Of a stretch of 64,000 nt of DNA, positions 7,011 to 43,470 are shown piece by piece (the stretch's first letter is position 1; each line of letters opens with the position of its first letter). The stretch covers positions 390,945 through 454,944 of the forward strand of contig JACKDQ010000002.1 in the NCBI GenBank assembly GCA_020633415.1, given 5' to 3'. A program made the position numbers and the translations under genes. The notes below the pieces were generated by a model that had not been told where the DNA came from, ran no database searches, and was given only the letters and a program-made list of their open reading frames with translations. The stretch is from Deltaproteobacteria bacterium (lineage in GTDB: Bacteria > Myxococcota_A > Polyangia > GCA-2747355).

Positions 7011-7244
7011 TCAGATCACTTTGTACAACACCAAACCAACCGAAAGAATCATCGCGGTGAGGATCATCGCCACACCCCAATTGCCCTTCTTAATCTCTTC
7101 CCACTCATCGATATCGCGCGAAAGCAGGTCGAAAACCTTGATCGCCAAACCCATCGCAAAGGCAAAGGAGATCGCCGCGACGATCGCCCAGCCAAATGAG
7201 CGCAAAAACTGCCACAACATCAATACCAGTTCGTCTTTGTTCAT
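7011..7244 (-). CDS. DUF350 (YjfL-like) small integral membrane protein
   Basis: 77 aa with two hydrophobic helices flanking ...DIDEWEEIKKGNWGVA..., the DUF350 pattern. Paralogue of 59351..59575. Confidence 0.75.
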   Translation of the reverse strand: MNKDELVLMLWQFLRSFGWAIVAAISFAFAMGLAIKVFDLLSRDIDEWEEIKKGNWGVAMILTAMILSVGLVLYKVI

Positions 7245-7314: not shown

Positions 7315-8607
7315 TCAACGGTCGATGTAGACCGGATAGCGCAGCGTTTGGGTCGCTCCACCGTGACGCGGAAATGGCAGTTGACCGAGCGCGCGCTGCA
7401 GACAAACCCGCAAGCGCAGCGAACCGCTCCCCTTCTCGAAAGCGAGCCGCTCAACGCCACCTCGCCCCGTGACCTCGAATTTGAGCGTTAGACCCTTGAA
7501 GCTCGACCGGCGCTGCGCCTCAGCGCGCAGGCACGGCGCCAGTTGATTGAAGTTTGACGACACCACCTGCAACAGCGCACTCGGATCGACTTGCGCGGCA
7601 TCCGGTGGATCACCGTCAGCATCAGACGTAAAGACCATCTGCTTAGCACCGCGACGCTGCTCGGCCACATAGTCCGACCACAGCGAGGTGGCGTCGAGCT
7701 GTCCTTGGGCAGCGCGACGAAGCGCCGCCAATGGACATGAGAACCGGCGCTTGCTGCGCCCATCGAGCAGCACAAGCTCGATCTTGCCAGCCGTTGGCGC
7801 ATGGGGATCGAGCGCGACTGACTTGCCGACCGCCAAGAGCGCGGCAAGCACTTGACTGCGGAAACGAACGCGATCGCCGTAAATCGTCAACTTGACGCTC
7901 AGCCCGGCGCCATCGCGCGCGACTTCTGCGGCGGAAGCGCTTCGCACGCGCCACGAGCGGAGCTGAGCGGCGAGCTTCTGTTGCGCGCGCTTTTCGAAGC
8001 CCGCTCGTGCATTGGCGACCCGCCGCACCAGCGCTAGACCTGACCGCTGCTTGGCGGCCGCGATCACATCTGCCGCCGGATAGCGATAAAGCGCGATCTC
8101 AGCGGGGGTCTGGTCACCGACCGCCCGCACACTCACCGTGCCAAAGCGAATCCGATAGCGCTCAAATTGTAGCTTGTTCGAGCCGAGCGCCCGACCGATC
8201 AGCTCGAGATGCATCGCCACCGCTCCGGTGCAAACCGTGCGGCGGCAGGGCTCGATCAACAGATCGATGTCGACCGCGATCTCGCGCATCTCCTTGAGCG
8301 CGACACGCGTCACGCGACCCGGATAAAAAAAGAGCAGCAGCCGAGCATTGGCTGGCGGCCGCATCGTCTGGATTAGACGACGCAGCGCACCACTGACCTT
8401 GCCAAGATCCGCCGTGCTGAAACTGCGCCCCATCGCTTCGGCCAGTAGACTGTCGAGCGCAGCGTCCGCGCGCTTGGCCGACTGTTTGTCGATACTCCGC
8501 TGACTACCCGTCGCCAGATCGACCTCGAGCAGGCGCGTTTGATCGGCACGAACCGCCGCAGAAACGGTCAAGACAACGCAAAATCCTAGCAGCGTGCTCG
8601 GGCGCAT
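7315..8607 (-). CDS. Secreted hypothetical protein with a TonB-C/AgmX-like C-terminal module
   Basis: Signal peptide MRPSTLLGFCVVLTVSAAVRA. The last ~90 aa (VVSSNFNQLAPCLRAEAQRR..GLTLKFEVTGRGGVERLAF...) resemble the TonB-C-like tails common in myxobacterial envelope proteins. This is pattern recall only. Confidence 0.55.
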   Translation of the reverse strand: MRPSTLLGFCVVLTVSAAVRADQTRLLEVDLATGSQRSIDKQSAKRADAALDSLLAEAMGRSFSTADLGKVSGALRRLIQTMRPPANARLLLFFYPGRVTRVALKEMREIAVDIDLLIEPCRRTVCTGAVAMHLELIGRALGSNKLQFERYRIRFGTVSVRAVGDQTPAEIALYRYPAADVIAAAKQRSGLALVRRVANARAGFEKRAQQKLAAQLRSWRVRSASAAEVARDGAGLSVKLTIYGDRVRFRSQVLAALLAVGKSVALDPHAPTAGKIELVLLDGRSKRRFSCPLAALRRAAQGQLDATSLWSDYVAEQRRGAKQMVFTSDADGDPPDAAQVDPSALLQVVSSNFNQLAPCLRAEAQRRSSFKGLTLKFEVTGRGGVERLAFEKGSGSLRLRVCLQRALGQLPFPRHGGATQTLRYPVYIDR

Positions 8608-27470: not shown

Positions 27471-28187
27471 TTAGTAGCGGTCCTTCCCAAAGGTCTTCAA
27501 TAGGCCATCAACCCTGCAAATGCCGCCGTCGATCGGGCTTTGCAGCGTCACCGCATTGAAGACAACCTCGGTCTGACCCGTCTGGTAGTCCCACTTTTTG
27601 ATCGAGATCGATCCTGTGATCGGATCGGGGATTTTCCCCTGGATCAGCGCCGCATAGTCTTTGGCGAGGTTGGTCCATACCATCGGGTCGGCGACGTTGA
27701 TGATGAAGTCCCAACAGGGCGGTGACGAACAACTCTCGGTGCGCGCCTTGCTGTTGACCGCAACGTTGCCGCTCAGACCGACCAAGCGCAGCGCGATCTG
27801 GTGAACTGGGAAGCTGGTCGCAGTCACCGTGATCTGCGCGTCGTGAGTCGCGCCTGGATTTGGACCGATCACCCACAGGTCGCGATTTTTCAGCTGGATG
27901 TGCGAGCACGACCCGGAAAAACGCAACTGACTGACATCGGCCTTGTTGCTCTTACCCGCGGCGTCAGCGCCGCTCGCATCGGGCGCGTTCACCGTGGCGT
28001 CGACCGAAACACCGCCATCGTTGCCGATCGCGACGTCAGCCGCAACGCTGCCATCGGCAAGACTTGCGTCGCCCTGAGCGATCGCGCCGTCGGCAGCAGC
28101 GCCGTCTGTGGTCGATTTGTTGCTATCCGAGCCACAGGCTGCCAAACAGAGCAGCCCGATCAAGGACCATGATCTCGCGTTCTTCAT
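27471..28187 (-). CDS. Hypothetical lipoprotein
   Basis: Lipobox LLCLAACGS followed by an Ala/Asp/Gly-rich linker and a globular C-terminal half. Confidence 0.6.
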   Translation of the reverse strand: MKNARSWSLIGLLCLAACGSDSNKSTTDGAAADGAIAQGDASLADGSVAADVAIGNDGGVSVDATVNAPDASGADAAGKSNKADVSQLRFSGSCSHIQLKNRDLWVIGPNPGATHDAQITVTATSFPVHQIALRLVGLSGNVAVNSKARTESCSSPPCWDFIINVADPMVWTNLAKDYAALIQGKIPDPITGSISIKKWDYQTGQTEVVFNAVTLQSPIDGGICRVDGLLKTFGKDRY

Positions 28188-28368: not shown

Positions 28369-29679
28369 CTATTCGCAGATCGCCGCGACCTGCAGCGAAC
28401 GATGGTCGGTGCTGGAAAAGAGAATCAGCGCTCGGCCGTCTTTGTCGACGGCGAGGTCTTCAAAGCGTCCGATGACGCCGGGGACGGTGCGTGGCGTCAG
28501 TTCCGGACCGCTGGCATAGCGGACTTGGTTGTCTGCGCCACGATAAGCGATATGCAGACGGCCCTGAGCATCGACCACCGCCTTGACGTCGCTACCAACC
28601 GCTGGGGCTTGTTCGATCGTCGTCGTCGATTCAACGGTCGGTGCACCGCTAACCCTCACGACACCCTTGGAGCCAACACCGTAACCCCCTTTGCATTCAA
28701 CAGTGGTCTGCTCGGGGACATCTTGGGAGGCGACCTCCGCGCATTGCTTTTCCCAATCCAGTCCGTTGTTGCCCAAAGGAACCATCGTCTCGACGTTGTA
28801 AAAGGCGTCGACGCGCGATCCGCTAATCGCCAGCGCAGCAGCGCCAACGTCACCACTGCGATCGAGAGCCACCGGCGACGCCCAACTGCGCTGGTTGCCA
28901 CTGGTGTATTCGAGCGCGGTTTCGGCCTTCTTGTCGTCGGGCCACGCCAATCGGCGGGTGTACGCCAAATGGACAGTCCCCTCGGCGACAGCGAGCACCG
29001 GATCGCTGAGCTTGCCCTGGACGACGCTATGAAACTGAAACGCTTCACCCGGCGCTTTCCAGCCATAGCGCAGCATCTCGTCGGCAAAGCCGAAATAGGC
29101 GAGGTGCACGCCACCTTTGGCGTCGAGCGCCAACGGGGTGCGCATCCGAACCATATTCGCGTCATCGATCACTTGAGCTTTGACGGCTTGCTCGCGACCA
29201 CTGGCATAGAACAGCGCATCGCTAAAGAAGTCGGTATAGAGCAAATGCACATTCTGGTCGCCGTCGACGGCGATCGCCGGGTTCGACGCATCCTTGTCGT
29301 GCAGAGCGATCTTGGCGAACTGCTCGCGGCCCCAGACGTACTCAACCGCGGCACCGCCGTGCTCTTTGTCCGCCGAGATGGCGAGCACATGCAACATGCC
29401 CCAATCGTCGACGGCCAATGCGCCCGACTGTCCACCAAAGAACAGCGCCTCAGCGCGGCCGGCGTCGATCGTCAACACCGTTTTCGGGCTGGGGTCGCAC
29501 TGAGCCGCGGCCTCACAACGCACGTCGCCTTTGGGAATACACTGGCCTTGCAGGCAGCATCCGCAACTGGCGTCGCAGGGCTCCTGGTAAGGGGTCCCCC
29601 GTGGGACGCCCCCCGGACAAGCGCAAAGCAGCAGCAACGTGCCGACCCAGCTAAGTTTGAGTAAAGGCAAAAGGCGCAT
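28369..29679 (-). CDS. Secreted/lipoprotein repeat protein (beta-propeller-like, recurring VHLAY/LHIAY blades)
   Basis: MRLLPLLKLSWVGTLLLLCACPGG. SD GGAGGAG lies upstream of ATG 29679. Repeats ...NVHLLYTD..., ...GVHLAYFG..., ...TVHLAYTR..., ...RLHIAYRG... Confidence 0.6.
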   Translation of the reverse strand: MRLLPLLKLSWVGTLLLLCACPGGVPRGTPYQEPCDASCGCCLQGQCIPKGDVRCEAAAQCDPSPKTVLTIDAGRAEALFFGGQSGALAVDDWGMLHVLAISADKEHGGAAVEYVWGREQFAKIALHDKDASNPAIAVDGDQNVHLLYTDFFSDALFYASGREQAVKAQVIDDANMVRMRTPLALDAKGGVHLAYFGFADEMLRYGWKAPGEAFQFHSVVQGKLSDPVLAVAEGTVHLAYTRRLAWPDDKKAETALEYTSGNQRSWASPVALDRSGDVGAAALAISGSRVDAFYNVETMVPLGNNGLDWEKQCAEVASQDVPEQTTVECKGGYGVGSKGVVRVSGAPTVESTTTIEQAPAVGSDVKAVVDAQGRLHIAYRGADNQVRYASGPELTPRTVPGVIGRFEDLAVDKDGRALILFSSTDHRSLQVAAICE

Positions 29680-29989
29680 CTGATCTACTCCTCCGCCTAG
29701 CAGAAGCAAATTGCGCACCAGCATGCGAGGCTTTGTTTTCAAATAGTTAGGAGACACTGCGGGCGACAATCGACCCCTTTGCCAGCGGCAGGTCCCGTCA
29801 CTTGCCCGCACTCAGCTGCCGCGCCAACACCCGCTCCGCGCGGGGAGCTACCGTCCAAATCTTGAAACAGACTTTGAGAATCGGCCGATCGTTTCCCACG
29901 TCGCGGGGGCGCCGGCGCAATAAATAGGCATAATTACAAGCATATAAGCAGAGAGACGACTGGCACGTGACTCGCATCGGGGACGATCG

Positions 29990-31396: not shown

Positions 31397-31993
31397 CTAG
31401 GCCGGATTGGGTTCGGTTCTTTTCCGGCTATTTGCCTGAGGTTCAGCAAAGTCGGCCGCATCAACGCTGCTCGGTAGGTCGGTCGGTGCATCGGGCTTGG
31501 CACCGAAGAGGATCTTTAGGTAGAGCCAGAGGATCACCGCCATCCCCCACGCCAGGCCGACCACCACGCCGCCATCGACGATCCCGCGCCAGGGCTGACT
31601 CAACCGGTGAACCGCGAGAACCAAACCGATCACGCCCAGCGTCACCGACCAGGCGACGATCTTGGCGCGACGTGACGCAAAGAAATAGGACATGCAAAAC
31701 GCTGGCGCGAGGGCCACGTGTAGCGGCCGCGGATTCGCCGCCAAGTAAGCCGCCCGCGCGACAACCTTGGGTGAAAAGCGCTTTTGGAAACCGCGGTAAC
31801 CCTCAGCGTACGCGTTAAACAACACCCACAGCGCATAGATCAGCGCCTGAACCGTGCTCAGACTGCCACTGCGCAGTGGCTCGAGCGCCAACGGCGTCAA
31901 ACGCCAAAGCGCCTGAAAGAGCAGCAAACAGACGCCAAAGACGCCCCAGGTTAGGATCAAGATATTCAATGGCCGTTTCATCGGCGACGACAC
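31397..31993 (-). CDS. Hypothetical integral membrane protein (4-5 TM)
   Basis: Hydrophobic helices throughout. No recognisable family. Confidence 0.5.
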   Translation of the reverse strand: MSSPMKRPLNILILTWGVFGVCLLLFQALWRLTPLALEPLRSGSLSTVQALIYALWVLFNAYAEGYRGFQKRFSPKVVARAAYLAANPRPLHVALAPAFCMSYFFASRRAKIVAWSVTLGVIGLVLAVHRLSQPWRGIVDGGVVVGLAWGMAVILWLYLKILFGAKPDAPTDLPSSVDAADFAEPQANSRKRTEPNPA

Positions 31994-32030: not shown

Positions 32031-33962
32031 CTAGAACGAGCGGACGATCTGCTTGCTAGCGCCGACCATCCACAGCGTGTCAGCGCTGGCGTCGAGGTCG
32101 TAAAAACGCCCGGCAGCAATCGTGCTGTACAGTTCTTTCCAGTTGGCGCCATCGAAACTGTGCAGCGCGCCTCCGCCGCTGCTATCACTGATCGCGTAAA
32201 GCAGATTGCCCTGGCGAAAAAGACTCCAAATCGTACCCGTAATCGGCGTGGTGACGACCTGCCAGGTGCTGCCGTTGAAATGAGCGACGGAGCCTTGTTC
32301 GCCAGCCACCCAAACATCCGTTTCGCTACCGCCGTGGACCGCATGTAGCCGTGAGAGCTGCGGCACTCCGAGGGCCCGCGACCAAAGCTTGCCGTCGTAA
32401 AACAACACGCCGCCAACCCCCGCAGTGCTGCTCTCGCCAACGGCCCAGATATGGCTCGCGTCGGCCCCCCAGATCGCACGCAACTGCCGCACCGGCGGGA
32501 TCGCCGCCTCTTGGACCCATGTGCTGCCGTTGAGCGTGTACATCACGCCAGCGCTGCTCGCGGTGCCCACCGACCAGTATTGGCTCGCCGACGCGCCCCA
32601 AACGCCAAACAGCGTCGTTCCTGCCGGAGCGTCAGCTTGCCAGATCCATTGCGTACCGTCGAAGAGCGCAAAGTGCGTGCCCACGGCCCAGCTGACGTCC
32701 TTGTTTAGCCGATGGATCGCCCAAAGTGCCTTCGAGGGCCGAACATAAGCGCTCTGACAACCAAAAGACTCACAGCGAACAATGCCATCGCTGTGCGCAA
32801 CCCACGCAGCGTTGGAGCCATCAGCGGCCACCGCGGTGTAGGTCGCGCCCTTGGCAACCTGATTGACCAGCGACCAGCTGCTGCCAGTGCGACGATGCAT
32901 CGTCACTTCGGTCGCGCTGCTGGTCGTGCGAACACCATCAAAGACCCAGTGCTCGTCACCAAACTGACCACCGACGACACTACCGGTGGCGAGGGTTAGC
33001 TCCGACTGCCAGTTGTTGCCATCGAAGCGGTAAACCGAACGGGCGGCGACAAACAGCTGATCGGCGCGCCCCCAGATCTCGGTGAAATTGTCGGAACTGG
33101 TGCCGACACGAGCCGTCGACCATTTGGTACCGTCGAAGGTGTGGATGTTGCCGCCGCTACCAGCACCGATCAACTTCGCTGGCGGCTGCCCCCAAAGGGC
33201 GTTGATCGTCCCCGGCGCGCTGATCGCCGCGGTCCAACCAAAGCCATCGTAATGGATCATCTCCCCCGCGCCGTAAGTGACCCAAACGTCGTTGGGCGCG
33301 ATCGCGAACAACGCCAGACTGTTTGTCCACCCGCTGCCGCTGATCGTCCAGCTCGTTCCATCGAAGTGCAATACGGAGTCGCTACTACCGCTGCTGATCA
33401 CCCAGACATCGTTCGCGCCGGTGCCGTGGACGCCCTTTAGCAGCGAACTGCTGCCGAGCGCCGCGGGCAGCGTGATCTGCGTCCAAGCCGAGCCGTCGTA
33501 GTGCAGGATCGTCGAGCTTGCGCCAACTGCATAAATGTCGCTTGGACCACTGCCCCAGATGCCCCAGAGGTCTCGCGTCGTCGGCGATTGCTGGGGGGCC
33601 CAGCTGCGCCCATCGTAGAAAAACAGCCGACCGCCGCGGCCGACAGCCCAGGCCGCCTTGTTGGAAGACCCCCAAGCTGCCGTGATCATACGGTAATCGA
33701 TATGAGCTAGCGTTTGATAGCCGGTCGGGTTGGCCACGCTACCATCTGTAGTGGGACCGCCATCTCGACCGAATGGCTCGATATAATTACCCAAATCACC
33801 AAAGCCCCCGTCACGCTGCCGACAGGTGCCGTCGACGCAAGCCACACCACGCTGGCAGGTGCTGTTGGGAAAACAACTGCCACCGGGCTCGCCTTGTTTC
33901 GGACTAGAGCTGCAGGCTGTCAGGGCGACTACCCCATACATCAGTAGCCAACAACGCATCAT
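32031..33962 (-). CDS. Lipoprotein with Cys-containing N-terminal module and a large multi-blade beta-propeller-like repeat region
   Basis: Lipobox VALTACSS. At least 12 repeats of the form (V)WAVG..G.i..yDG..W (e.g. AWAVGRGGRLFFYDGRSW, IYAVGASSTILHYDGSAW, VWVAGEQGSVAHFNGSTW). Confidence 0.65.
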   Translation of the reverse strand: MMRCWLLMYGVVALTACSSSPKQGEPGGSCFPNSTCQRGVACVDGTCRQRDGGFGDLGNYIEPFGRDGGPTTDGSVANPTGYQTLAHIDYRMITAAWGSSNKAAWAVGRGGRLFFYDGRSWAPQQSPTTRDLWGIWGSGPSDIYAVGASSTILHYDGSAWTQITLPAALGSSSLLKGVHGTGANDVWVISSGSSDSVLHFDGTSWTISGSGWTNSLALFAIAPNDVWVTYGAGEMIHYDGFGWTAAISAPGTINALWGQPPAKLIGAGSGGNIHTFDGTKWSTARVGTSSDNFTEIWGRADQLFVAARSVYRFDGNNWQSELTLATGSVVGGQFGDEHWVFDGVRTTSSATEVTMHRRTGSSWSLVNQVAKGATYTAVAADGSNAAWVAHSDGIVRCESFGCQSAYVRPSKALWAIHRLNKDVSWAVGTHFALFDGTQWIWQADAPAGTTLFGVWGASASQYWSVGTASSAGVMYTLNGSTWVQEAAIPPVRQLRAIWGADASHIWAVGESSTAGVGGVLFYDGKLWSRALGVPQLSRLHAVHGGSETDVWVAGEQGSVAHFNGSTWQVVTTPITGTIWSLFRQGNLLYAISDSSGGGALHSFDGANWKELYSTIAAGRFYDLDASADTLWMVGASKQIVRSF

Positions 33963-34475: not shown

Positions 34476-35630
34476 CTACTCGAGAGCATCGAGATCAACG
34501 CCAACCTGGGTGTCGCTGTCGGACAAACCGAAGCCACCATCGTCACAGCCGAAAAACGCTGGGGTCATCTCGGAAAAGCCATCGGCGCGAAGTTTATCGA
34601 GAAAGGTCGGCGCGTTGCCCGCGAGGCGCAACTCGCCGACGACGCTGCCGTCGCGCTGCAAACCCCGCTGCGCAAAGACGAACAGATCAGCGACGCGATA
34701 GTCCCCGCGACCGTCGAGCGGCAAGACCTCACTGATCGCGGTCAGTCGACGTGAACCGTCGCGTAGCCGGTTCTGGCAAACGACAACATCGATCGCCGCG
34801 CTGACTTGCGCACGGATCGCGGTCAGCGGCAGGCCCGTCGCCGCCAACAACGCCAATGACTCCAGACGGCTAAGCGTCTCCCGCGGACTGTTGGCGTGAC
34901 AGGTCGAGAGCGTGCCGCCGTGGCCGGTATTCATCGCCTGCAACAAGTCGAAGCATTCGCCACCGCGAACCTCGCCGATGACGATCCGATCGGGCCGCAG
35001 CCGCAGCGCCGAATGGAGCAGGTCGCGGATCGAGACCGCCCCCTTGCCGCGATGATCGGCAGGGCGGGTCTCGAGCGGAACGAGATGCTGTTGGCGCAAC
35101 TGCAGCTCGGCCGCATCCTCGATCGTCACGATCCGCTCGTCGTCGCCGATAAACTGCGATAGCGCGTTGAGCAGCGTGGTTTTGCCGCTACCGGTGCCTC
35201 CCGCAACAATGATGTTCTTTTTGCACTCGACGAGCACGCGCAAAAAATGCGCGGCTTCATCGGTCAGCGATCCAAAGCCGACCAGGTCTTCGACGGAAAA
35301 GCCGCCGGGGTGAAACTTGCGGATGGTGATCACCGTACCGCAGCGCGCCATCGGCGCCAGTATCACGTGGATCCGCGAACCATCGGGCAAGCGCGCATCG
35401 AGCCGCGGTTGGTCATCGGAAAGCGGTCGACCGACGTACTGCGCCATGTTGCGCGCCGCAGCGAGCAAGGTGTCAGCGGTGAAGGTCGACTCGACTCGGC
35501 TCAGGCGACCGCCGCTTTCGATCCAGACGTCGTCAGGACCATTGATCATGATCTCGCTGATACGTTGGTCGTCGAGCAAATGCAAAATCGGGCGCAAGAA
35601 TGCCCGCAGCGAATCGGAGAACATCGTCAT
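34476..35630 (-). CDS. CpaF/TadA-type (type II/IV secretion family) hexameric ATPase with a ~60-aa C-terminal extension
   Basis: [12 protein letters not shown], Walker [11 protein letters not shown], Asp box [11 protein letters not shown], Walker [14 protein letters not shown], His box [14 protein letters not shown]. Confidence 0.85.
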
Positions 35631-35836: not shown

Positions 35837-37024
35837 CTATTTCACGGGGTTGTTCGGGTCTTCAACCTGTTGTCTCGGTTCTTCAACCAGCGGGGGTTCC
35901 TGGCCGATCAGACCGGGGCTGGTGGGGCCATCGCTCAGTTTCGTCAAGCGGTCCACTTGAGCCATCTTCACAATATTGGTGGCGTCTTTGCACGCGACCT
36001 CGGTGTTGCAGAATTTCGGCATGTTGCAGAGATCCTTGATCGCCGGCTGAGGGTAGTCAAATTGATCGAGGTAAACCGCTGCAACCGTGTTGTTTTCTGC
36101 CTGGCCGGGGGCGATCAAGTACAGCGGCGTGGCCTCACAGTGGTGCTTGCCCAGATTGCCGGCGGCAAACAGCGCGTGCTCGCAACTCCCATCGGCGAGC
36201 CGCCAACGGTTGGCCGCCAGACCACTGATGTAAGGCTCGAGGATGCCCAAATTGATGTTGCCAACGGATTCATCATTGCTGATGAAGGTCGGGCCTTCCA
36301 CACCGTTGGAAAAGTCAACGATGCCGCCATAATAAAGGTCACCCGCAGGGGTATAAAGGTTCGTCGTGTCGCCGAGGCCGAGCCCTTCGAGCGTCCAGAC
36401 CGAGGACCAGGTCGACTGATTGTATTGGTTGTATTCGGTCGGACTGAAAGCGATCAAGTCGCCGCCGGTCGTCGCGTCGTTGGGCCGCTGAACCGTGGTC
36501 AGCGTGCCGTCGCAGCGCGAACCTAGGCCAACCCAGGTCTGCGGGTGGTTGATGGTGATCCAGCTCCAGGCGCCGCCCGGATTGGACGGATTTTGGTTGA
36601 GAAAATCAAGGTCTAGCGTATACAAATAGTCCGTCTGCCCGGTGTTGGGGGCCTCGACCAGTACGTAGAGCTTGTTTTCTGTCGGATGGGCGGCAAGGCC
36701 ACCGAAGTTAAACTGGTTGAGGCTCGGGATCTGCGCGACGAACTTCGCGGCCCAGACCACCTTGCCACTGTAGCCAAACAGTTCGGGGTTACCGAGCGCG
36801 TAAATCTTGACCACGTTGTTTTGGTCAACGACCGCGTTGCCATTTGCCGCGTTGTGGCATTGGCGATCGATCGCGTAGCCGACCGCGACCCAGTCCATGT
36901 ACCAGGTCACCGACTTGGTCGATTTGGTGACTTTGGACGTGGCCGCATCGCAAGCGGCAAAAGCGACAATCGCCGCCACACCTAACAACCAAGCCCTTCT
37001 AAAAACCTTGTTTTTGCTCATCAT
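35837..37024 (-). CDS. Hypothetical lipoprotein, Asn/Gln/Thr/Tyr-rich, compositionally atypical for this window
   Basis: Lipobox IVAFAACD. The gene is visibly lower in GC with many A/T-ending codons. No recognisable family. Confidence 0.6.
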   Translation of the reverse strand: MMSKNKVFRRAWLLGVAAIVAFAACDAATSKVTKSTKSVTWYMDWVAVGYAIDRQCHNAANGNAVVDQNNVVKIYALGNPELFGYSGKVVWAAKFVAQIPSLNQFNFGGLAAHPTENKLYVLVEAPNTGQTDYLYTLDLDFLNQNPSNPGGAWSWITINHPQTWVGLGSRCDGTLTTVQRPNDATTGGDLIAFSPTEYNQYNQSTWSSVWTLEGLGLGDTTNLYTPAGDLYYGGIVDFSNGVEGPTFISNDESVGNINLGILEPYISGLAANRWRLADGSCEHALFAAGNLGKHHCEATPLYLIAPGQAENNTVAAVYLDQFDYPQPAIKDLCNMPKFCNTEVACKDATNIVKMAQVDRLTKLSDGPTSPGLIGQEPPLVEEPRQQVEDPNNPVK

Positions 37025-37119
37025 TTCCTCGCTGTTCTTTCCGTTTGTTGCTGCCCAAAAACGCACGACAACGCCGCCAACCCATCCAAGTGGGAGGCCA
37101 AGACGCGCCGAACACTCTG

Positions 37120-37296: not shown

Positions 37297-37731
37297 CTAG
37301 TCTACAGACGCGGAAAAAAGTCCCGTGGCGGTGCAACTGCCTGGGCCGTCTGCGGAGAAGGTCCCGCTCAGCTGTTCAAGATAGTCGGCTCGGCCGGCAA
37401 ACCGATAGGAGACCTTTCCGGCCTGCGGATCCTCTTCCTGGGTCGAAAACTCAACGCTGGACGCCGAGAGCGCGCTGCCGGCGAAGCCGAAGCCGTCGAT
37501 CGCCTCAACCAGCGCAAGCTGACCATTAGACCGGTCGTGGTGAATACGCAGCGGTTGTGACGGACCGAGCACAAACGTCCCCTGGTAGACCCGCTCAGCG
37601 CAATCACTGCGCGTTCCACTGCCGTTGATCTGCCAAATGCCGCTGAGATCAAAAACCGGCGACGTGGCGGCGATTTGGGCGCAGGCCGAGCACGTCAGCA
37701 GGGCGAACAACGATGCACGCGAGACGCTCAA
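37297..37731 (-). CDS. Small lipoprotein-like secreted protein
   Basis: (M)SVSRASLFALLTCSAC signal/lipobox. The TTG start overlaps the stop of the upstream caspase-like gene (TTGA, 37728-37731). Confidence 0.5.
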   Translation of the reverse strand: MSVSRASLFALLTCSACAQIAATSPVFDLSGIWQINGSGTRSDCAERVYQGTFVLGPSQPLRIHHDRSNGQLALVEAIDGFGFAGSALSASSVEFSTQEEDPQAGKVSYRFAGRADYLEQLSGTFSADGPGSCTATGLFSASVD

Positions 37732-39971
37732 AAGCCGACCCCCAAAGAAGCGCTTAGCCCCTGGTGAAAACGCCGTCCATTGAGACTAGCGTACATCGCA
37801 TCGTAGTCGATCACGACGAGCAGGTGCGCTGTCCAGGTGCGAAAGAACATCACGCCCAGACGACCGTAGCCGCCAAACCCGACAGCAAAATCGTCGAGCA
37901 CGCTGCTGCTGTAAGATGGCAAGACACTACCGACGACGGTGCGGTTTTCGCGCTGCTCCCAGGCCAGACGTAGACCCACACCCGCGCCAACAAACGGCGA
38001 GACCGGCCCGCGCGAGAGAAACCAGCTTGCTCCGACGTCGATCGGCACCGATCGATACTTGTCCGCGCCGGAAACGGCATCCGAGCGAAAGCCAACACGC
38101 GACTCGATAGCAAAGCGCTGCGCCTCGTAGCCTAGTGCGAGATCAACGCCCGCGCCAACGCCCGCCGGTCCGGCATAGCCGCTGCCCAGCGGGACGAAAA
38201 CGCCGAAGCGCAATAGCGCGCCCAGGCTGCCCTGACGGCGGCGCGGCTTGCGTGTCTCGTAGGCGGTAATCGTGCCGAGTTCTGCGGTCGATTCGAGTGG
38301 CTTGTTCGTGCGCAGCGCAACAACGATCCGCTGGGCGATCTCCTCGAGATCGTCGACGGTATCGACCGTCGCGCGCAGTTGTCGCGGCGGTCCGCTGGAC
38401 AAACGCGCAACGACGGCGACGATTAGCTTCTTGCCCAGACGATCGATCCGGCCAAACAACAGGCGCTCGGCCGGCCGGCGATCGGCGACGGCGCACCGCT
38501 CCGTGGCGCAAGGCGCACCCTGGATTTGGGTGACCTTGTGCTTGAACTGCGTGGAGATTTCACTGCCGAGCAGGCGACGAAACACCTGACCCACGGACGG
38601 TTCGAGCCCACTGACCACAAAGGGGAAGATCGCCCAGTCGGCCGCACCGTCGGTGGACGGCGCCACCGGCTGCCGCGCGGCGGTGGGGCGTGACGCGGGG
38701 GGCTTCGCCTCTGGCGGAAACGCAACGCTTGCCCCGCCGACGCTATCGACGTGCCCTTGGTAGTAGGCTGGCCCGAAGGGAGCGGCGAACAGTGCACCGT
38801 GAAGCGCGTAGTCGATCGCGCCACGCGAATCACTGGAACGCGCGCGCCCAACCAGCGCATCGAAATCGATCAGCGCAGCAGCGCTGGCGATCACATACTC
38901 GCGCTTCGGCGTCCGCAAGAACAGCGTACCCGTCGCTGGCAAGACCAGTGTCGACTGATATGGACCATTGAGGTGGGCCTCGATCAGGCGCTGACCATTG
39001 TCGCGCTCGATGAAAAATCGACCGAGAGTTGCCAACTTGCCGCGGAGGCGGCGCGCTTGGCGGAGGGTATCGAGGCGAATGACGGGGGCGCGTTGGTCGA
39101 TAGCGGGTGGGTGCGCGACGACGCGACTCTTCGCCCGCGGATCGGCGACTTGACGGTTGGCAGCAGCGATGAACGCCTGGACTTCACTGTACTCGATCAC
39201 CCCATCTGCGTTGACATCGGCGGCGCCGCGCAAGCCTGAGAGCAACTCGTGGGTGAACACGCCAGATTCGATTTGCGACCACTCGTGCGCTTCCTGGGTG
39301 CCCGTCGTAGCGACGATCGCCCCGACGTGCGGAAGACGAGCCAAAGAAGCCGCATCGAGCAATGCCCGCCGCTCGACACCACTGAGCGCAACGGTCCTCG
39401 CCGACGTCTCCCGGTCGAAGAGCTTGCGCGCACCGACGATCGATGCGGCGTAACAGGCATCAACGAAAACGTGAGCGACATCGGCAGGAATCAGCGCCAA
39501 CACCCGGCGATAGAGTTGCTCGCGGGTCAGCCGGCCGTCGTGCAATGCGAGGAAAGCACGTCCTTGGCGATCGCGTGCGCCGTGTCCACTATAAGCAAAA
39601 TAAAAAACGACGCGCTGGCCGGCAGCTCGCAGGCGCTTGGCTTCGCTGGCAAACTGGCGCAATGTTCGCCGCAAGGCTGCGCGAGTCGGCGGCTGACTTT
39701 GGCGCGCACGTTGCGGATAGCGAGCTTGCGTCTGGCGATCAAGCACAGCGAGCAGCACGGTCTTGACGGTAAACTGCTCAAAAAACTCTGCATAGCGTAC
39801 GGCGTCGTCATCGGCGTAGCGCAGTGCAGCGAGCGTCTTGCCCGCGTCTCCTAGAGGGGCGGCGTTGTTGCCAATGACCAAAGCCAATGCACTCACCGGT
39901 TGCTCGCTGGGTGCTGCGGCCGCCTGAGTGGCAACGAGCAACGCCGCACAGATTGCCGCCACGCGACTCAT
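37728..39971 (-). CDS. Secreted peptidase-C14 (caspase-fold) domain protein with EF-hand/dockerin-like loop and a C-terminal beta-barrel-like region ending in Phe
   Basis: Signal peptide ICAALLVATQAAAA. ALVIGNN...ALRYADDDA, FYFAYSGHGA (catalytic His context) and HVFVDACYAAS (catalytic Cys context). DVNADGVIEYSEVQAFI. The last ~200 aa are Gly/aromatic alternating strands terminating ...LGVGF. Confidence 0.7.
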   Translation of the reverse strand: MSRVAAICAALLVATQAAAAPSEQPVSALALVIGNNAAPLGDAGKTLAALRYADDDAVRYAEFFEQFTVKTVLLAVLDRQTQARYPQRARQSQPPTRAALRRTLRQFASEAKRLRAAGQRVVFYFAYSGHGARDRQGRAFLALHDGRLTREQLYRRVLALIPADVAHVFVDACYAASIVGARKLFDRETSARTVALSGVERRALLDAASLARLPHVGAIVATTGTQEAHEWSQIESGVFTHELLSGLRGAADVNADGVIEYSEVQAFIAAANRQVADPRAKSRVVAHPPAIDQRAPVIRLDTLRQARRLRGKLATLGRFFIERDNGQRLIEAHLNGPYQSTLVLPATGTLFLRTPKREYVIASAAALIDFDALVGRARSSDSRGAIDYALHGALFAAPFGPAYYQGHVDSVGGASVAFPPEAKPPASRPTAARQPVAPSTDGAADWAIFPFVVSGLEPSVGQVFRRLLGSEISTQFKHKVTQIQGAPCATERCAVADRRPAERLLFGRIDRLGKKLIVAVVARLSSGPPRQLRATVDTVDDLEEIAQRIVVALRTNKPLESTAELGTITAYETRKPRRRQGSLGALLRFGVFVPLGSGYAGPAGVGAGVDLALGYEAQRFAIESRVGFRSDAVSGADKYRSVPIDVGASWFLSRGPVSPFVGAGVGLRLAWEQRENRTVVGSVLPSYSSSVLDDFAVGFGGYGRLGVMFFRTWTAHLLVVIDYDAMYASLNGRRFHQGLSASLGVGF

Positions 39972-40624
39972 CTAACGACCTCAAGCTTTCGCGAAATGAT
40001 CGTGAAGGCGGAGCGGCTTGCGCCCTGGGTGTCACCGAGCGCGGAGCGCACGTCGTCTTGCGAGAGCGGGCGCGATGAAAGCACCCCGTAGACGGTGTAC
40101 CGTCCAGGGGGGTGATCCTTACCGATCACCACAGCGCGCGGGACGATCAACTCGCCGGCGCCGGAAAGCTGAAGACTACGTTGCGTCGCGTCAGCGGGGA
40201 AATACCAGAACGTTGTGCCCCGTGGCCCTTCGGCAACGGCGGCAAAATGGCTCCGCTGAGCGACCCCATCGAGGCGAAAGACCAAACGCGCTCCATGGCG
40301 GCAGCGCGGCACACCGCTGGCAGCAGCGGAAGCGACGCCGCAGCCTAGCCACATCGCGGGAGAGCTCGCTGTTGTCGCGCCGCGGGCTGAAAACGGTGAT
40401 GGTGAGAGCGGCTGCCGCGACAAAAGGAACAGCGGAATGGTGAGCGCCACCAGCGCCGCCGTCGCCGACCAAGCGAACCAGCGCAACAGATTGGTCTGCG
40501 AGCGCGCCGGCGCCTGGCGGGCGATCACCCGCTCGAAAACGCGCTCTTTGCGTGACACCGGCAAGCGATCGGAGCGTTGAGAGAGTAGCTGCTCAGCTCG
40601 GTCGTGATCAGCAGATGAGTCCAC
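39968..40624 (-). CDS. Putative anti-sigma factor (single-pass membrane protein)
   Basis: Positioned immediately downstream of the ECF sigma gene. One TM helix (WFAWSATAALVALTIPLFLL). Its stop overlaps the start of the caspase-like gene (ATGA, 39968-39971). Assignment is by position and topology only. Confidence 0.5.
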   Translation of the reverse strand: MDSSADHDRAEQLLSQRSDRLPVSRKERVFERVIARQAPARSQTNLLRWFAWSATAALVALTIPLFLLSRQPLSPSPFSARGATTASSPAMWLGCGVASAAASGVPRCRHGARLVFRLDGVAQRSHFAAVAEGPRGTTFWYFPADATQRSLQLSGAGELIVPRAVVIGKDHPPGRYTVYGVLSSRPLSQDDVRSALGDTQGASRSAFTIISRKLEVVR

Positions 40625-40679
40625 GCTCTATCCTACGCAGCGCCCATCGTCTTGGGTCGCAAATAATAGTGCAAGCATT

Positions 40680-41339
40680 TCAACGTGCTTTAGCTGTCGC
40701 CTGGCGGTCGGCATACGCCAGGAAGCGCAAGAACTCCTGCTTGAGACGACGATCGAGCGTACGCACGCGTCGCCGAGTGACGTCCATCGCGGCGGCGATC
40801 TGACGCTGCGGAAGCTCATCGACGAAGCGGAGGCGTACGTAGCGTGCCATCTGAGCATCTACGGTTTTGAGAAACTCATGAACGCGCCCTATGTCACGCT
40901 GCCAGGCCACTTGCTCTTCGCTTGTCAGTGGTGCGTCGGCGATCGGCGCGTCGGCGTCGATCAGCTGATCGATGTCGAGCGGCTGGTCGGTACCAAAAGT
41001 CGAAGCGGGCAATTCACGGTGTGCACCCCGCCGAAAACGATCGATCAAATAGTTCTTGGCGATACGGCGAAGGTATGGCCGAAAGGGATTGATGCCATCG
41101 TAGGCGTGTCGGGCGCGCGGCGCGAAGGCGCGAACGAAGACCTCCTGCAGCACATCGTCGAGCTCACTGGAATCGCGAATTGGTGGCAGGTAGGCATCTG
41201 AGCTCCCGCCTACGACGAAACCGCGGCGCAGCAAACGATAGATATCGTCGACGTAGTAGCGGTAGACGCGCTCAAGGGCCTCGCGTCGGCCTTCGCGAAA
41301 TGCCTTAAGCAACTGCCTATTTTCCACCAACAGGGGCAT
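40680..41339 (-). CDS. ECF-type RNA polymerase sigma-70 family factor
   Basis: Region 2 (DVLQEVFVRAF..., FRPYLRRIAKNYLIDRFRR) and region 4 HTH (VRLRFVDELPQRQIAAAMDVTRRRVRTLDRRL). Confidence 0.85.
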   Translation of the reverse strand: MPLLVENRQLLKAFREGRREALERVYRYYVDDIYRLLRRGFVVGGSSDAYLPPIRDSSELDDVLQEVFVRAFAPRARHAYDGINPFRPYLRRIAKNYLIDRFRRGAHRELPASTFGTDQPLDIDQLIDADAPIADAPLTSEEQVAWQRDIGRVHEFLKTVDAQMARYVRLRFVDELPQRQIAAAMDVTRRRVRTLDRRLKQEFLRFLAYADRQATAKAR

Positions 41340-41410
41340 GTTGTGCGAGCCGAACGCCTCAGGGCGCCACCCTAGACAGGGCGGCGATCGTTGTCAAAGG
41401 TAGCGAGAGG

Positions 41411-42442: not shown

Positions 42443-42576
42443 TCGTTTCAGAAAACGAAAAGCGCCGATGCGTCCGCCATCCGTACCAGACGGTCCGCGT
42501 TTCGCCCGCTTCAACAACCCGACAACCCGATGTCGCAGAGTTGCGAATGGTCCAGCATTTGCTCGCGCCACCAATC

Positions 42577-43470
42577 ATGACTCGAGCCTACCCCGTAATG
42601 CCCGGTACCACCTATATGTTGACACGCCAGTGCGTGGACAGAATGTTCTTGCTTCGTCCTGACAAACACTCAAACCAGATATTCCTTTACAGTTTGGCGC
42701 GAGCAGCACGTATCAATGGAATCATTCTACATGCTGTGACGGTAATGAGCGGTCACCCACACGTGGTCTATACCGACCCACTCGGACGAGACCCAGAGTT
42801 TCGCCGCGACCTCTTCGCTCTCGTGGCTCGAGCGATCAACGCGCTACGAAAACGCAGCGGACACTGCTTTGCGATCGCCAATCACAATACAATGGTCTTG
42901 GTTGACGAGGGTGCGCAACTTGAGGCGATGGCATACGTCGCGGCTCAACCCGTCGCCGCTGGGGCCGTTCGCTACGGATACCAGTGGCCTGGAGTTCGCA
43001 GTAAGGTCGAAGAGTTCGACAAACTCCGCAGGGTCAGACGCCCCAATACATCGTTTTTCCGCAACGACACGCTGCCCGAACATGAGTCGTTGATGCTCGT
43101 TCCGCCACCGGGAATCAGGGGCGAAAAGTGGTACGTGACAGCAACGATCCGCGCCGCCATCGTAAGCGCCGAACAGAACGCGCGCGCGGCTCACGCACGA
43201 TCTGGTAGGCCATTTGAGGGGAGACGGGCCGTTCGCCGGACGAGTTGCTTTCGCCAACCCAATTCGCTGCAGCCAAGCAGGCGACTCAATCCGCGCATCA
43301 AGTGTCACGACCTAGAGCTGCGCAAAGCCGCAAAGGCAGCATTGTCGGCTTTTTGGTGCGCTTACTACGGCGCTCTCTTCGAGCTGCGTCGCGGGAATCG
43401 CACCGTTCGCTTTCCACACGGGACCTGGCGCCTTCGCGTCTACAGCGGCGTCGAGTGCGATTCAGGGTAG
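42577..43470 (+). CDS. IS200/RayT-like HUH (Y1) transposase-family protein
   Basis: GIILHAVTVMSGHPHVVYTD matches the ...ayvvMsNHvHll... HUH block. AMAYVAAQPVAAGAVRYGYQWPG matches the catalytic-Tyr block (..YI..NPV.AGLV....WP.S). The gene is lower in GC than its neighbours. Confidence 0.6.
   Translation: MTRAYPVMPGTTYMLTRQCVDRMFLLRPDKHSNQIFLYSLARAARINGIILHAVTVMSGHPHVVYTDPLGRDPEFRRDLFALVARAINALRKRSGHCFAIANHNTMVLVDEGAQLEAMAYVAAQPVAAGAVRYGYQWPGVRSKVEEFDKLRRVRRPNTSFFRNDTLPEHESLMLVPPPGIRGEKWYVTATIRAAIVSAEQNARAAHARSGRPFEGRRAVRRTSCFRQPNSLQPSRRLNPRIKCHDLELRKAAKAALSAFWCAYYGALFELRRGNRTVRFPHGTWRLRVYSGVECDSG

What the first reader, a model, noticed from the sequence alone, without database searches (positions are those of the whole stretch)
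37297..41339. ECF sigma, anti-sigma, secreted caspase-fold protein with barrel-like C-terminus, and lipoprotein: a translationally coupled four-gene envelope module
SEEN: four consecutive minus-strand genes run 41339 to 37297. The anti-sigma candidate and the 747-aa gene overlap by ATGA (39968-39971). The 747-aa gene and the small lipoprotein gene overlap by TTGA (37728-37731). The 747-aa protein has a cleavable signal peptide and an N-terminal block with caspase-type contexts FYFAYSGHGA (His) and HVFVDACYAAS (Cys). It also has an EF-hand/dockerin-like loop DVNADGVIEYSEV and a ~200-aa Gly/aromatic-rich alternating C-terminus ending ...GVGF. KNOWN: peptidase C14 enzymes use a His/Cys dyad in exactly these SGHG / D-A-C contexts. 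Outer-membrane beta-barrels typically end in an aromatic residue. ECF sigma/anti-sigma pairs usually control the envelope genes encoded next to them. INFERENCE: this is a dedicated, sigma-controlled envelope module whose effector is a caspase-like protease tethered to or embedded in the outer membrane, with a lipoprotein partner. I am not aware of this architecture being characterised. It could act in envelope-stress signalling, regulated proteolysis or cell death, or kin/predation functions.
Basis: partly seen in the sequence, partly recalled or inferred. Interest (0 to 1): 0.75.

Follow-up and report, generated by a model that had tools for sequence, protein, structure and literature searches.

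The report
Sigma/anti-sigma operon with barrel-anchored metacaspase
A myxobacterial operon encodes a stress-type sigma factor, its membrane anti-sigma partner and a secreted caspase-like protease; this trio recurs across Myxococcota and was noted in 2012 but never studied, and here the protease is unusually fused to an outer-membrane barrel anchor.

Summary
All four minus-strand ORFs, both 4-nt overlaps, the quoted His/Cys contexts, the EF-hand-like loop and the C-terminal F are present. Sigma and anti-sigma are separated by 55 nt, not overlapping.

The 747-aa protein is a true Peptidase C14 member (45.4 bits against a cutoff of 21.4). H130 and C173 are invariant in 78 relatives, and the model resembles orthocaspase and metacaspase structures. 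Residues 582-747 model as an eight-stranded outer-membrane barrel (pLDDT 92).

Two corrections. First, the conserved unit is sigma, anti-sigma and caspase (60 of 65 loci). The 144-aa gene is an orphan with a non-canonical lipobox. Second, residues 437-747 match a stand-alone family (TolB_N-like domain plus barrel), so this protein is a rare fusion. Most relatives instead end in two predicted TM helices.

Sigma/metacaspase operons in Myxococcus, Haliangium and Anaeromyxobacter were tabulated in 2012. I found no functional study.

Best mechanism (inferred): a membrane-tethered periplasmic protease, probably Arg/Lys-specific, cleaves the anti-sigma at a conserved juxtamembrane [R/K]-G (R81-G82; 68 of 71 relatives), releasing sigma. 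DdvA is the closest analogue.

Verdict: new variant of a known, uncharacterised kind; moderate interest.

The parts
41340..41410 (-). 71-nt intergenic region upstream of the sigma gene; contains TTGACA-N17-TAGGGT (weak sigma-70-like match)
   Evidence: Read by eye. The consensus scan did not call it. No conserved ECF-type dyad was found upstream of 44 related sigma genes. The promoter is therefore unresolved.
40680..41339 (-). ECF (group 4) sigma factor, 219 aa
   Evidence: Pfam Sigma70_r2 (7.9e-10) and r4 (9.9e-07). TIGR02937 sigma70-ECF 75.9 bits against cutoff 42.9. Relatives lie directly upstream of the caspase gene in 61 of 65 loci.
39968..40624 (-). Single-pass transmembrane anti-sigma candidate, 218 aa (about 48-aa cytoplasmic N-terminus, TM helix, about 145-aa periplasmic domain)
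   Evidence: No Pfam or NCBIfam hit. One hydrophobic helix at residues 49-70. Relatives are present in 64 of 65 loci between sigma and caspase. Distant relatives carry H-x3-C-x2-C / Pfam zf-HC2. Conserved periplasmic motifs: C95, C108, FAAFA, WYFP.
40415..40480 (-). Predicted TM helix of the anti-sigma (residues 49-70)
   Evidence: Kyte-Doolittle window maximum 1.98 at residues 49-51.
40379..40384 (-). R81-G82: conserved juxtamembrane [R/K]-G, the candidate protease cleavage site
   Evidence: An [R/K]-G lies within 40 aa after the TM helix in 68 of 71 anti-sigma relatives, median 12 aa from the helix, consensus [FL]-x-[APV]-[RK]-G. The background dipeptide frequency is 0.0081. Its role as a cleavage site is inferred.
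37728..39971 (-). 747-aa secreted multidomain C14 protease (fusion protein)
   Evidence: The identical protein is annotated 'caspase family protein' in an NCBI Deltaproteobacteria MAG.
39912..39971 (-). N-terminal signal peptide (about residues 1-20)
   Evidence: Hydrophobic segment at residue 4 onward; an Ala-rich A-x-A region is read from the sequence. No dedicated predictor was run.
39102..39887 (-). Peptidase C14 caspase-fold domain (residues 29-290) with His130 (39582-39584), Cys173 (39453-39455), acidic D56 and D171, and R182 at the mouth of a disordered loop (187-205)
   Evidence: PF00656 45.4 bits. H130, C173 and D171 are kept in 78 of 78 sequences, D56 in 74 of 74, and R182 is R in 76 and K in 2. 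AF2 pLDDT 87, pTM 0.86. Foldseek top hits are GSU0716 (3bij), metacaspase-9, then caspases. SGHG and DAC align to the GSU0716 motifs.
39183..39218 (-). EF-hand-like 12-residue loop D252-x-N-x-D-G-x-I-x-Y-x-E263 inside the C14 domain
   Evidence: D252, D256, Y261 and E263 are invariant and N254 nearly so. Relatives give sub-threshold Pfam EF-hand hits. The profile aligns to the EhCBP1 EF-hand at E=0.006.
38712..39101 (-). Family-specific all-beta 'middle' domain (about residues 291-420), function unknown
   Evidence: Conserved across the family. Modelled as beta-strands 296-377 with pLDDT above 90. No Pfam match.
38304..38645 (-). TolB_N/CsgG-like alpha/beta domain (about residues 443-556), preceded by a Pro/Ala-rich linker (residues 421-442)
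   Evidence: Homologous end to end with stand-alone 320-345-aa proteins. Members give weak TolB_N, FlgO and CsgG hits. AF2 shows an alpha/beta fold with pLDDT above 90.
37731..38228 (-). Eight-stranded outer-membrane beta-barrel (residues 582-747), ending in F
   Evidence: AF2 on a 65-sequence alignment gives mean pLDDT 92.4 and 8 long strands. Foldseek hits NspA (E 4.8e-08, TM 0.77), OmpA, OprF, Ail, OmpX and OmpW. OMP_b-brl hits in 8 of 65 relatives.
37297..37731 (-). Orphan 144-aa ORF with an N-terminal signal-like sequence; overlaps the protease stop by TTGA
   Evidence: Coding-like codon statistics. No relative in the 80 loci or in the 5.8-billion-cluster search. Not a member of the downstream lipoprotein family seen elsewhere. 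The lipobox is non-canonical.

Best explanation
This is a dedicated envelope signalling module: an ECF sigma factor, its single-pass membrane anti-sigma, and a secreted, membrane-tethered protease of the metacaspase/orthocaspase kind (Peptidase C14). The protease and anti-sigma genes overlap and almost never occur apart, so the two proteins most likely act on each other in the periplasm.

The proposed sequence of events is as follows. A signal activates the protease; Ca2+ binding at the embedded EF-hand-like loop is one candidate. The protease has the acidic S1-pocket aspartates of Arg/Lys-specific C14 enzymes. It cleaves the anti-sigma at the conserved [R/K]-G about 12 residues outside the membrane (R81-G82 here). 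The short stub is then removed by intramembrane proteolysis, and sigma is released to transcribe its regulon, which is unknown.

In most relatives the protease is predicted to be held by two C-terminal helices. In this genome those are replaced by a fused TolB_N-like domain plus an 8-stranded barrel, so the protease would hang from the outer membrane and reach the inner-membrane anti-sigma across the periplasm.

Shown: gene order and its conservation, the C14 fold and dyad, the barrel, and the conserved RG motif. Inferred: the substrate, the cleavage site, Ca2+ control and the consequences for sigma.
For: The trio is conserved in 60 of 65 Myxococcota loci, and the anti-sigma stop commonly overlaps the caspase start. 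H130, C173, D171 and D56 are retained in all 78 proteases, so there are no pseudo-enzymes. The literature assigns the two equivalent aspartates of TbMCA2 (Asp95, Asp211) to binding of basic P1 residues (PMC6426788 and PMC4357240). The closest structures are GSU0716 and metacaspase-9. A juxtamembrane [R/K]-G occurs in 68 of 71 anti-sigmas, inside an otherwise variable Pro/Ser-rich linker. A similar G-[V/A]-R-G sits at the mouth of the protease's own disordered post-Cys loop: R in 116 of 117 and G in 111 of 117. The anchor is interchangeable (predicted TM helical hairpin, other beta-rich tails, or the TolB_N-barrel) while the protease module stays constant. There is a precedent: the M. xanthus anti-sigma DdvA carries a periplasmic caspase-fold CHAT domain proposed to autoproteolyse before RseP cleavage (PMC11506125).
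Against: There is no experimental data for any member. The RG motif could be structural rather than a cleavage site. The mapping of D56 and D171 onto the metacaspase S1 pocket rests on motif position, not on a superposition. The window protease itself has R-K rather than R-G in its own loop. No ECF autoregulatory promoter motif was detected. An outer-membrane-anchored protease reaching a site 12 residues from the inner membrane needs the 22-residue linker and the multidomain body to span the periplasm, which was not modelled. Co-transcription with a sigma factor is equally what one expects of a regulon output.
Confidence: 0.42

Rival explanations
1. The protease is an output (effector) of the sigma factor rather than part of its switch. 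When an unrelated signal inactivates the anti-sigma, the autoregulated operon overproduces an envelope-anchored C14 protease that remodels or degrades periplasmic or outer-membrane proteins, for stress repair, development, predation or cell death.
For: The protease is co-oriented with and downstream of sigma and anti-sigma, with no predicted terminator in between. ECF operons are commonly autoregulated (established knowledge). It is secreted and membrane-anchored with an intact dyad. A variable fourth gene often encodes a large lipoprotein that could be a substrate or partner.
Against: An output gene would not be expected to be tied so strictly, and with start/stop overlap, to the anti-sigma in 64 of 65 loci across deep Myxococcota divergence. 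M. xanthus has four parallel sigma/anti-sigma/metacaspase sets, which looks like paralogous signalling cassettes rather than four copies of one effector. The conserved basic site in the anti-sigma linker is left unexplained.
Confidence: 0.3
2. The anti-sigma-like protein's periplasmic domain is an inhibitor or receptor of the protease (a securin-like or RseB-like relationship). The protease-anti-sigma complex is the sensor, and signal-induced dissociation, rather than cleavage at RG, changes anti-sigma conformation or exposes it to other proteases.
For: There is tight genetic coupling and probable stoichiometric co-translation. The anti-sigma has a conserved folded periplasmic domain with two Cys and the WYFP and FAAFA motifs. 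Caspase-fold enzymes are commonly held inactive by bound partners (PMC11506125 discussion).
Against: Strict conservation of the catalytic dyad and pocket residues argues that catalysis matters. No interaction model could be computed because the structure jobs were exhausted.
Confidence: 0.15
3. The 747-aa ORF is an assembly or annotation artefact that joins a normal family-type caspase gene to a neighbouring TolB_N-barrel gene, so the 'outer-membrane caspase' does not exist as one protein.
For: The fusion is unique among 120 listed homologues and 80 loci. The source is a metagenome-assembled genome.
Against: The reading frame is continuous, with uniform codon statistics. The junction is a Pro/Ala-rich linker that exactly replaces the TM hairpin of relatives and the signal peptide of the stand-alone family; the HMM covers residues 437-747. 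The identical protein is recorded on two contigs from different sources, the longest 847 kb.
Confidence: 0.05

Closest known systems
Sigma-factor/metacaspase operons of Myxococcus xanthus DK1622 (MXAN_4949-4953, MXAN_6681-6684, MXAN_7214-7216, MXAN_7454-7456), Haliangium ochraceum and Anaeromyxobacter, tabulated by Asplund-Samuelsson et al. 2012 (PMC3501461)
   Same: Same gene order: ECF sigma, a hypothetical protein with one TM helix, a C14 metacaspase, and in two operons a downstream lipoprotein. MXAN_7456 has the same two C-terminal TM helices (420-439, 470-492) as most relatives found here.
   Different: Those operons were only listed, with no mechanism proposed or tested. None was reported with an outer-membrane barrel. 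Homology of the window proteins to those specific M. xanthus proteins was not tested directly here; the Myxococcaceae loci are 33-35% identical.
DdvS/DdvA of M. xanthus (ECF sigma plus transmembrane anti-sigma with periplasmic TPR-CHAT caspase-fold domain; PMC11506125)
   Same: A periplasmic clan-CD His/Cys protease fold physically coupled to an ECF anti-sigma in Myxococcota. Proposed protease-first, RseP-second release of sigma.
   Different: In DdvA the protease fold is CHAT, fused in cis to the anti-sigma, dimeric and with an incomplete active site. Here it is a C14 domain on a separate protein, with its own anchor, an EF-hand-like loop and an extra beta domain.
Craspase (gRAMP-TPR-CHAT cleaving Csx30 next to an ECF sigma) and CalpL-CalpT-CalpS
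   Same: A protease gene encoded beside an ECF sigma/anti-sigma pair, where cleavage of the anti-sigma-like protein releases sigma. This is known for these CRISPR-associated systems and is cited in PMC11506125 and bioRxiv 10.1101/2023.06.23.546230.
   Different: Those systems are cytoplasmic, nucleic-acid or cOA-triggered immune systems. This module is Sec-exported, envelope-located, and not next to CRISPR or CBASS genes.
Orthocaspases and metacaspases (C14B; GSU0716 structure 3bij, AtMC9, TbMCA2)
   Same: The fold, the SGHG and D-x-C dyad contexts, and two conserved acidic pocket residues. Ca2+ dependence is typical of metacaspases.
   Different: Sequence similarity is low (12-18% identity in structural alignments). 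The canonical EF-hand loop embedded in the domain, the C-terminal beta domain and the membrane anchors are family-specific.
Small 8-stranded outer-membrane barrels (NspA, OmpA N-domain, OmpX, Ail, OmpW)
   Same: Strand number, size and C-terminal aromatic residue.
   Different: Here the barrel is C-terminal to large periplasmic domains and belongs to an unnamed family with a TolB_N-like domain (469 relatives at E<=0.001). It is not an autotransporter: 8 strands rather than 12.

Membership tests
Peptidase C14 (Pfam PF00656, clan CD) | Significant match to the family HMM | tested here: met
   45.4 bits, E 1e-11, residues 29-276, against gathering cutoff 21.4.
Peptidase C14 (Pfam PF00656, clan CD) | Catalytic His and Cys in the conserved contexts, aligned to known members | tested here: met
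   H130 (SGHG) and C173 (DAC) are kept in 78 of 78 relatives. They align to SYSGHGG and DSCHSG of GSU0716.
Peptidase C14 (Pfam PF00656, clan CD) | Caspase/hemoglobinase fold | tested here: met
   AF2 model pLDDT 87, pTM 0.86. Foldseek hits 3bij, metacaspase-9 and caspases-7, -6 and -8 at probability 1.00.
Peptidase C14 (Pfam PF00656, clan CD) | Proteolytic activity | not testable with these tools
   Requires an enzyme assay.
Metacaspase/orthocaspase type (basic P1 specificity) | Two acidic S1-pocket residues equivalent to TbMCA2 Asp95 and Asp211 | tested here: inconclusive
   D56 (start of helix 1) and D171 (two residues before Cys) are invariant and sit at the expected motif positions (PMC6426788, PMC4357240). 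No structural superposition or substrate assay was done.
ECF (group 4) sigma factor | Sigma-2 and sigma-4 regions only; match to the ECF model | tested here: met
   Sigma70_r2 and r4 hits with no r3 hit. TIGR02937 75.9 bits against 42.9. ECF group number not assigned (no ECF Hub models available).
Anti-sigma factor (ZAS / class I type) | Encoded directly downstream of the sigma gene; single-pass membrane topology | tested here: met
   55 nt downstream on the same strand. One TM helix at residues 49-70. The arrangement holds in 60 of 65 loci.
Anti-sigma factor (ZAS / class I type) | H-x3-C-x2-C zinc motif / Pfam zf-HC2 in the cytoplasmic domain | tested here: not met
   Absent from the window protein. 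Present in distant homologues of the same family: regex in 22 of 71, and Pfam zf-HC2 in 2 of 28 at E 7e-4.
Anti-sigma factor (ZAS / class I type) | Binds and inhibits the cognate sigma | not testable with these tools
   Needs two-hybrid or pull-down experiments, or a multimer model.
8-stranded outer-membrane beta-barrel (OmpA/OmpX/NspA-like) | Closed barrel of 8 antiparallel strands with a C-terminal aromatic residue | tested here: met
   Eight strands across residues 582-746, pLDDT about 97. NspA TM 0.77, E 4.8e-08. The protein ends in F747. The window sequence alone gives no Pfam OMP hit, but 8 of 65 relatives do.
Bacterial lipoprotein (144-aa ORF) | Lipobox [LVI][ASTVI][GAS]C after a short n- and h-region | tested here: not met
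   The contexts are L-L-T-C14 and C-S-A-C17. An A-x-A SPase I site (ACA|Q) is an alternative. No dedicated predictor was available.
DdvA-type anti-sigma with periplasmic caspase-fold domain | Protease fold (CHAT) fused in cis to the anti-sigma | tested here: not met
   Two separate overlapping genes; the domain is C14, with no CHAT hit.
Type Va autotransporter | 12-stranded C-terminal translocator barrel with an exported passenger | tested here: not met
   The barrel has 8 strands. Autotransporter barrels rank low, with TM-scores of 0.30 or less.

The most novel reading that the evidence does not exclude
A trans-envelope proteolytic switch. A Ca2+-gated, Arg-specific metacaspase-like protease, here hung from the outer membrane by its own beta-barrel, acts as the dedicated site-1 protease of an inner-membrane anti-sigma, cutting at a conserved juxtamembrane R-G. 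That would make C14 caspase homologues a previously unrecognised class of ECF-signalling proteases, duplicated several times per myxobacterial genome.
Probability: 0.3. Interest if true: 0.75.

Novelty: new variant of a known kind. Interest (0 to 1): 0.5.

Why it matters
Bacterial caspase homologues are abundant, but very few have a known substrate or physiological role. For most ECF sigma factors the protease that starts anti-sigma degradation is also unknown. This module pairs the two in a near-obligate operon across Myxococcota, with four copies reported in the genetically tractable M. xanthus. It offers a concrete, testable substrate (the anti-sigma) and a concrete site (the juxtamembrane R-G). 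If confirmed, it would give a function to a large group of prokaryotic metacaspases. It would also extend the recently proposed DdvA 'caspase-fold anti-sigma' idea to a two-protein system. The window's barrel-fused variant additionally suggests that where the protease is anchored is an evolvable parameter of the switch.

Tried and rejected
(1) A full-length phmmer search against PDB sequences gave 0 hits. Only a profile search plus structure prediction gave informative matches.

(2) The word-indexed homology search with the anti-sigma returned only itself. Relatives were instead recovered from the fetched loci with phmmer and jackhmmer.

(3) A spaced-dyad and k-mer search for a conserved ECF promoter upstream of 44 sigma genes did not exceed shuffled controls. 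The sigma-70 consensus scan found nothing in the operon. Promoter architecture remains unknown.

(4) BLAST clustering of downstream ORFs, and a strict lipobox regex, both undercounted the downstream lipoprotein family. Jackhmmer was needed.

(5) A strict SGH[GS] regex suggested His loss in about 22 loci. HMM alignment showed that His is retained in all of them, in AGHG or VGHG contexts.

(6) An autotransporter reading of the C-terminus was rejected: 8 strands, and homology to a stand-alone periplasmic-domain+barrel family.

(7) The ECF group could not be assigned. The reclassification paper's main text does not mention caspase, and its supplements are not held.

(8) No paralogues of any module gene, and no CRISPR or CBASS genes, were found in the window.

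Full report
OBSERVATION. ORF listing confirms four consecutive minus-strand ORFs at exactly the stated coordinates:
- 40680-41339 (219 aa)
- 39968-40624 (218 aa, GTG start)
- 37728-39971 (747 aa)
- 37297-37731 (144 aa, TTG start)

The ATGA overlap (39968-39971) and the TTGA overlap (37728-37731) can be read directly from the sequence. Sigma and the anti-sigma candidate do not overlap; they are separated by 55 nt. All four ORFs score best in their own frame with a codon model trained on the window, and GC3 is 0.66-0.71. The quoted peptide strings are all present. No intrinsic terminator is predicted between the genes.

IDENTITY OF THE PARTS. The first gene is an ECF sigma factor: Sigma70_r2 and r4 hits and TIGR02937 at 75.9 bits against a cutoff of 42.9.

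The second protein has no family hit. It has one TM helix (residues 49-70), a 48-residue cytoplasmic N-terminus and a periplasmic domain of about 145 residues with conserved Cys95, Cys108, FAAFA and WYFP motifs. More distant homologues at the same operon position carry an N-terminal H-x3-C-x2-C motif (regex in 22 of 71) and a weak Pfam zf-HC2 hit (2 of 28). This supports the anti-sigma assignment. The window protein itself lacks the zinc motif.

The 747-aa protein matches Peptidase_C14 above threshold: 45.4 bits against 21.4, residues 29-276. H130 (SGHG) and C173 (DAC) are invariant in 117 database homologues and in all 78 sequences from genomic loci. A family profile aligns them to the SYSGHGG and DSCHSG motifs of the Geobacter protein GSU0716. 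An AlphaFold2 model of residues 1-445 has pLDDT 87.2 and pTM 0.86. It is closest to GSU0716 (3bij) and Arabidopsis metacaspase-9, followed by animal caspases.

The DxNxDGxIxYxE loop (residues 252-263) is a canonical 12-residue EF-hand pattern, and it is conserved. Relatives give sub-threshold EF-hand hits, and the profile aligns to the EF-hand of EhCBP1 at E=0.006.

THE C-TERMINUS IS A FUSED, INDEPENDENT MODULE. Database homologues of the 747-aa protein are typically about 525 aa long and match only its first 52-58%. Their C-termini contain two predicted TM helices, near residues 430 and 480, plus a short tail ending in W or F.

A sensitive search with residues 455-747 found 469 proteins at E<=0.001. 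The best are stand-alone proteins of 320-345 aa that align end to end. Their HMM covers residues 437-747 of the query and matches no other caspase-family member. Members give weak TolB_N, FlgO and CsgG hits in the first half and OMP_b-brl or PagL hits in the second half.

AlphaFold2 on a 65-sequence alignment gave mean pLDDT 92.4. The model has an alpha/beta domain followed by eight long strands. Foldseek places the barrel with NspA (E 4.8e-08, TM 0.77), OmpA, OprF, Ail, OmpX and OmpW.

However, it is a rare fusion (signal peptide, C14 domain, beta domain, linker, TolB_N-like domain, 8-stranded barrel) and not a family trait. A few other family members (580-621 aa) have different beta-rich tails without TM helices. 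The anchor is therefore the evolutionarily labile part.

SYNTENY. A scan of one genome per species returned 80 loci, all from Myxococcota MAGs. With iterative profiles, of the 65 loci that have at least 1.5 kb of upstream sequence, 61 have the ECF sigma, 64 have the anti-sigma-like gene and 60 have both. All are on the same strand directly upstream of the caspase gene. The anti-sigma stop commonly overlaps the caspase start.

The 144-aa gene has no relative in these loci and matches only itself among 5.8 billion protein clusters. Its putative lipobox is non-canonical (LLT-C or CSA-C).

Elsewhere the downstream position is usually occupied by a same-strand gene (67 of 73 loci). In at least 23 loci this is a homologous large lipoprotein with a Cys-rich N-terminal region; in the one example read in full (L004), repeats that look like a beta-propeller follow it. 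Neither the 144-aa protein nor the 409-aa neighbour belongs to that family. The upstream DUF1722 gene and the downstream CpaF-like ATPase are not conserved neighbours.

PRIOR KNOWLEDGE. The 2012 census of prokaryotic caspase homologues states that four of the five M. xanthus DK1622 metacaspases lie in operons with sigma factors. It reports the same structure in Anaeromyxobacter, Haliangium, Sorangium, Ralstonia and Fibrobacter (PMC3501461). Its supplement lists ECF sigma, a one-TM hypothetical protein, a metacaspase and, in two cases, a 'lipoprotein' (MXAN_4949-4953, 6681-6684, 7214-7216, 7454-7456). MXAN_7456 has TM helices at 420-439 and 470-492.

I found no functional work on these loci. 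The ECF reclassification paper's main text does not mention caspases.

The closest mechanistic precedent is DdvA, an M. xanthus transmembrane anti-sigma. Its periplasmic domain is a caspase-fold TPR-CHAT module, proposed to autoproteolyse before RseP cleavage (PMC11506125).

MECHANISM (INFERRED). Four observations point to the protease being part of the switch rather than merely its output.

(i) The protease is coupled almost obligately to the anti-sigma, with start/stop overlap.

(ii) Catalytic and pocket residues are strictly retained: H130, C173 and D171 in 78 of 78 sequences, and D56 in 74 of 74. D56 and D171 occupy the motif positions of TbMCA2 Asp95 and Asp211, which accommodate basic P1 residues (PMC6426788, PMC4357240).

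(iii) There is a conserved [F/L]-x-[A/P/V]-[R/K]-G motif, at a median of 12 residues beyond the TM helix, in 68 of 71 anti-sigmas. The background dipeptide frequency is 0.0081. The motif is embedded in an otherwise variable, Pro/Ser-rich linker. In the window it is R81-G82.

(iv) A similar G-[V/A]-R-G sits at the start of the protease's own disordered loop after the catalytic Cys (residues 187-205, pLDDT below 50). R is present in 116 of 117 sequences and the following G in 111 of 117. This loop occupies the position of the caspase intersubunit linker, which suggests autoprocessing with the same specificity. The window protein has R-K at this position.

Cleavage at R81 would leave a periplasmic stub of about 11 residues, the kind of substrate site-2 proteases accept (established knowledge of RseP-type regulated proteolysis). 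The EF-hand loop suggests Ca2+ control, as in metacaspases.

In this genome the outer-membrane anchor would make the switch span the envelope. All of these steps are inference; none has been tested.

RIVALS. Three alternatives remain:
- The protease is a sigma-controlled effector. This is plausible, but it does not explain the anti-sigma coupling, the RG motif or the four paralogous cassettes in M. xanthus.
- The anti-sigma periplasmic domain acts as an inhibitor or receptor of the protease rather than as its substrate.
- The fusion is an assembly artefact. This is unlikely: the frame is continuous, the codon statistics are uniform, the domain junction is clean, and the identical protein is recorded on two contigs.

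VERDICT. The conserved unit is a three-gene sigma/anti-sigma/C14 cassette that has been noted before but never characterised. The window holds a rare outer-membrane-barrel fusion variant plus an orphan fourth gene. Interest is moderate: the novelty lies in the variant and in a testable substrate hypothesis, not in the existence of the architecture.

Noticed in passing
window 37731-38660 (residues 437-747) and proteins P0122-P0271: There is a large, apparently unnamed family of stand-alone proteins of about 330 aa: signal peptide, TolB_N/CsgG-like domain, then an 8-stranded outer-membrane barrel. It has 469 representatives at E<=0.001, and no Pfam model covers the whole protein. Its function and genomic context are unknown.
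   Followed up: partly
L004:7594-8958 and the equivalent position in at least 23 loci (e.g. L002, L010, L019, L035): The usual gene immediately downstream of the caspase gene encodes a 400-800-aa lipoprotein with a conserved C-x-L-D-x3-4-K-x2-C-x4-D-C Cys-rich start. In L004 this is followed by repeats that look like a beta-propeller. It has no Pfam family in most members and may be the sensor or substrate of the module.
   Followed up: partly
L003:1848-3608 and L006:5998-7773 (P0041/P0055/P0059/P0082 type, 580-593 aa): A subfamily of the caspase proteins has a different beta-rich C-terminal tail with no TM helices, ending ...LSLGWAF. It keeps the anti-sigma-like gene, but no sigma gene was detected directly upstream.
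   Followed up: no
window 34476-35630 and 35837-37066 (minus strand): A lone CpaF/T2SSE-type secretion ATPase (PF00437, 2.2e-57) lies next to a 409-aa protein with no family match. Several further downstream minus-strand ORFs also have no family match (32031-33962, 31397-31993, 28369-29811, 27471-28187). No other Tad or pilus genes were recognised.
   Followed up: no
window 42541-43470 (plus strand): A 309-aa ORF with no Pfam hit has a clearly weaker codon score (0.014) and lower GC3 (0.63) than its neighbours. It is possibly foreign, degenerate or not a gene.
   Followed up: no
window 39418-39444 (residues 176-184 of the 747-aa protein): The window protease is the only one of 117 aligned family members with G-A-R-K instead of G-[V/A]-R-G at the conserved post-Cys loop motif. 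This coincides with its unique outer-membrane-barrel anchor.
   Followed up: no
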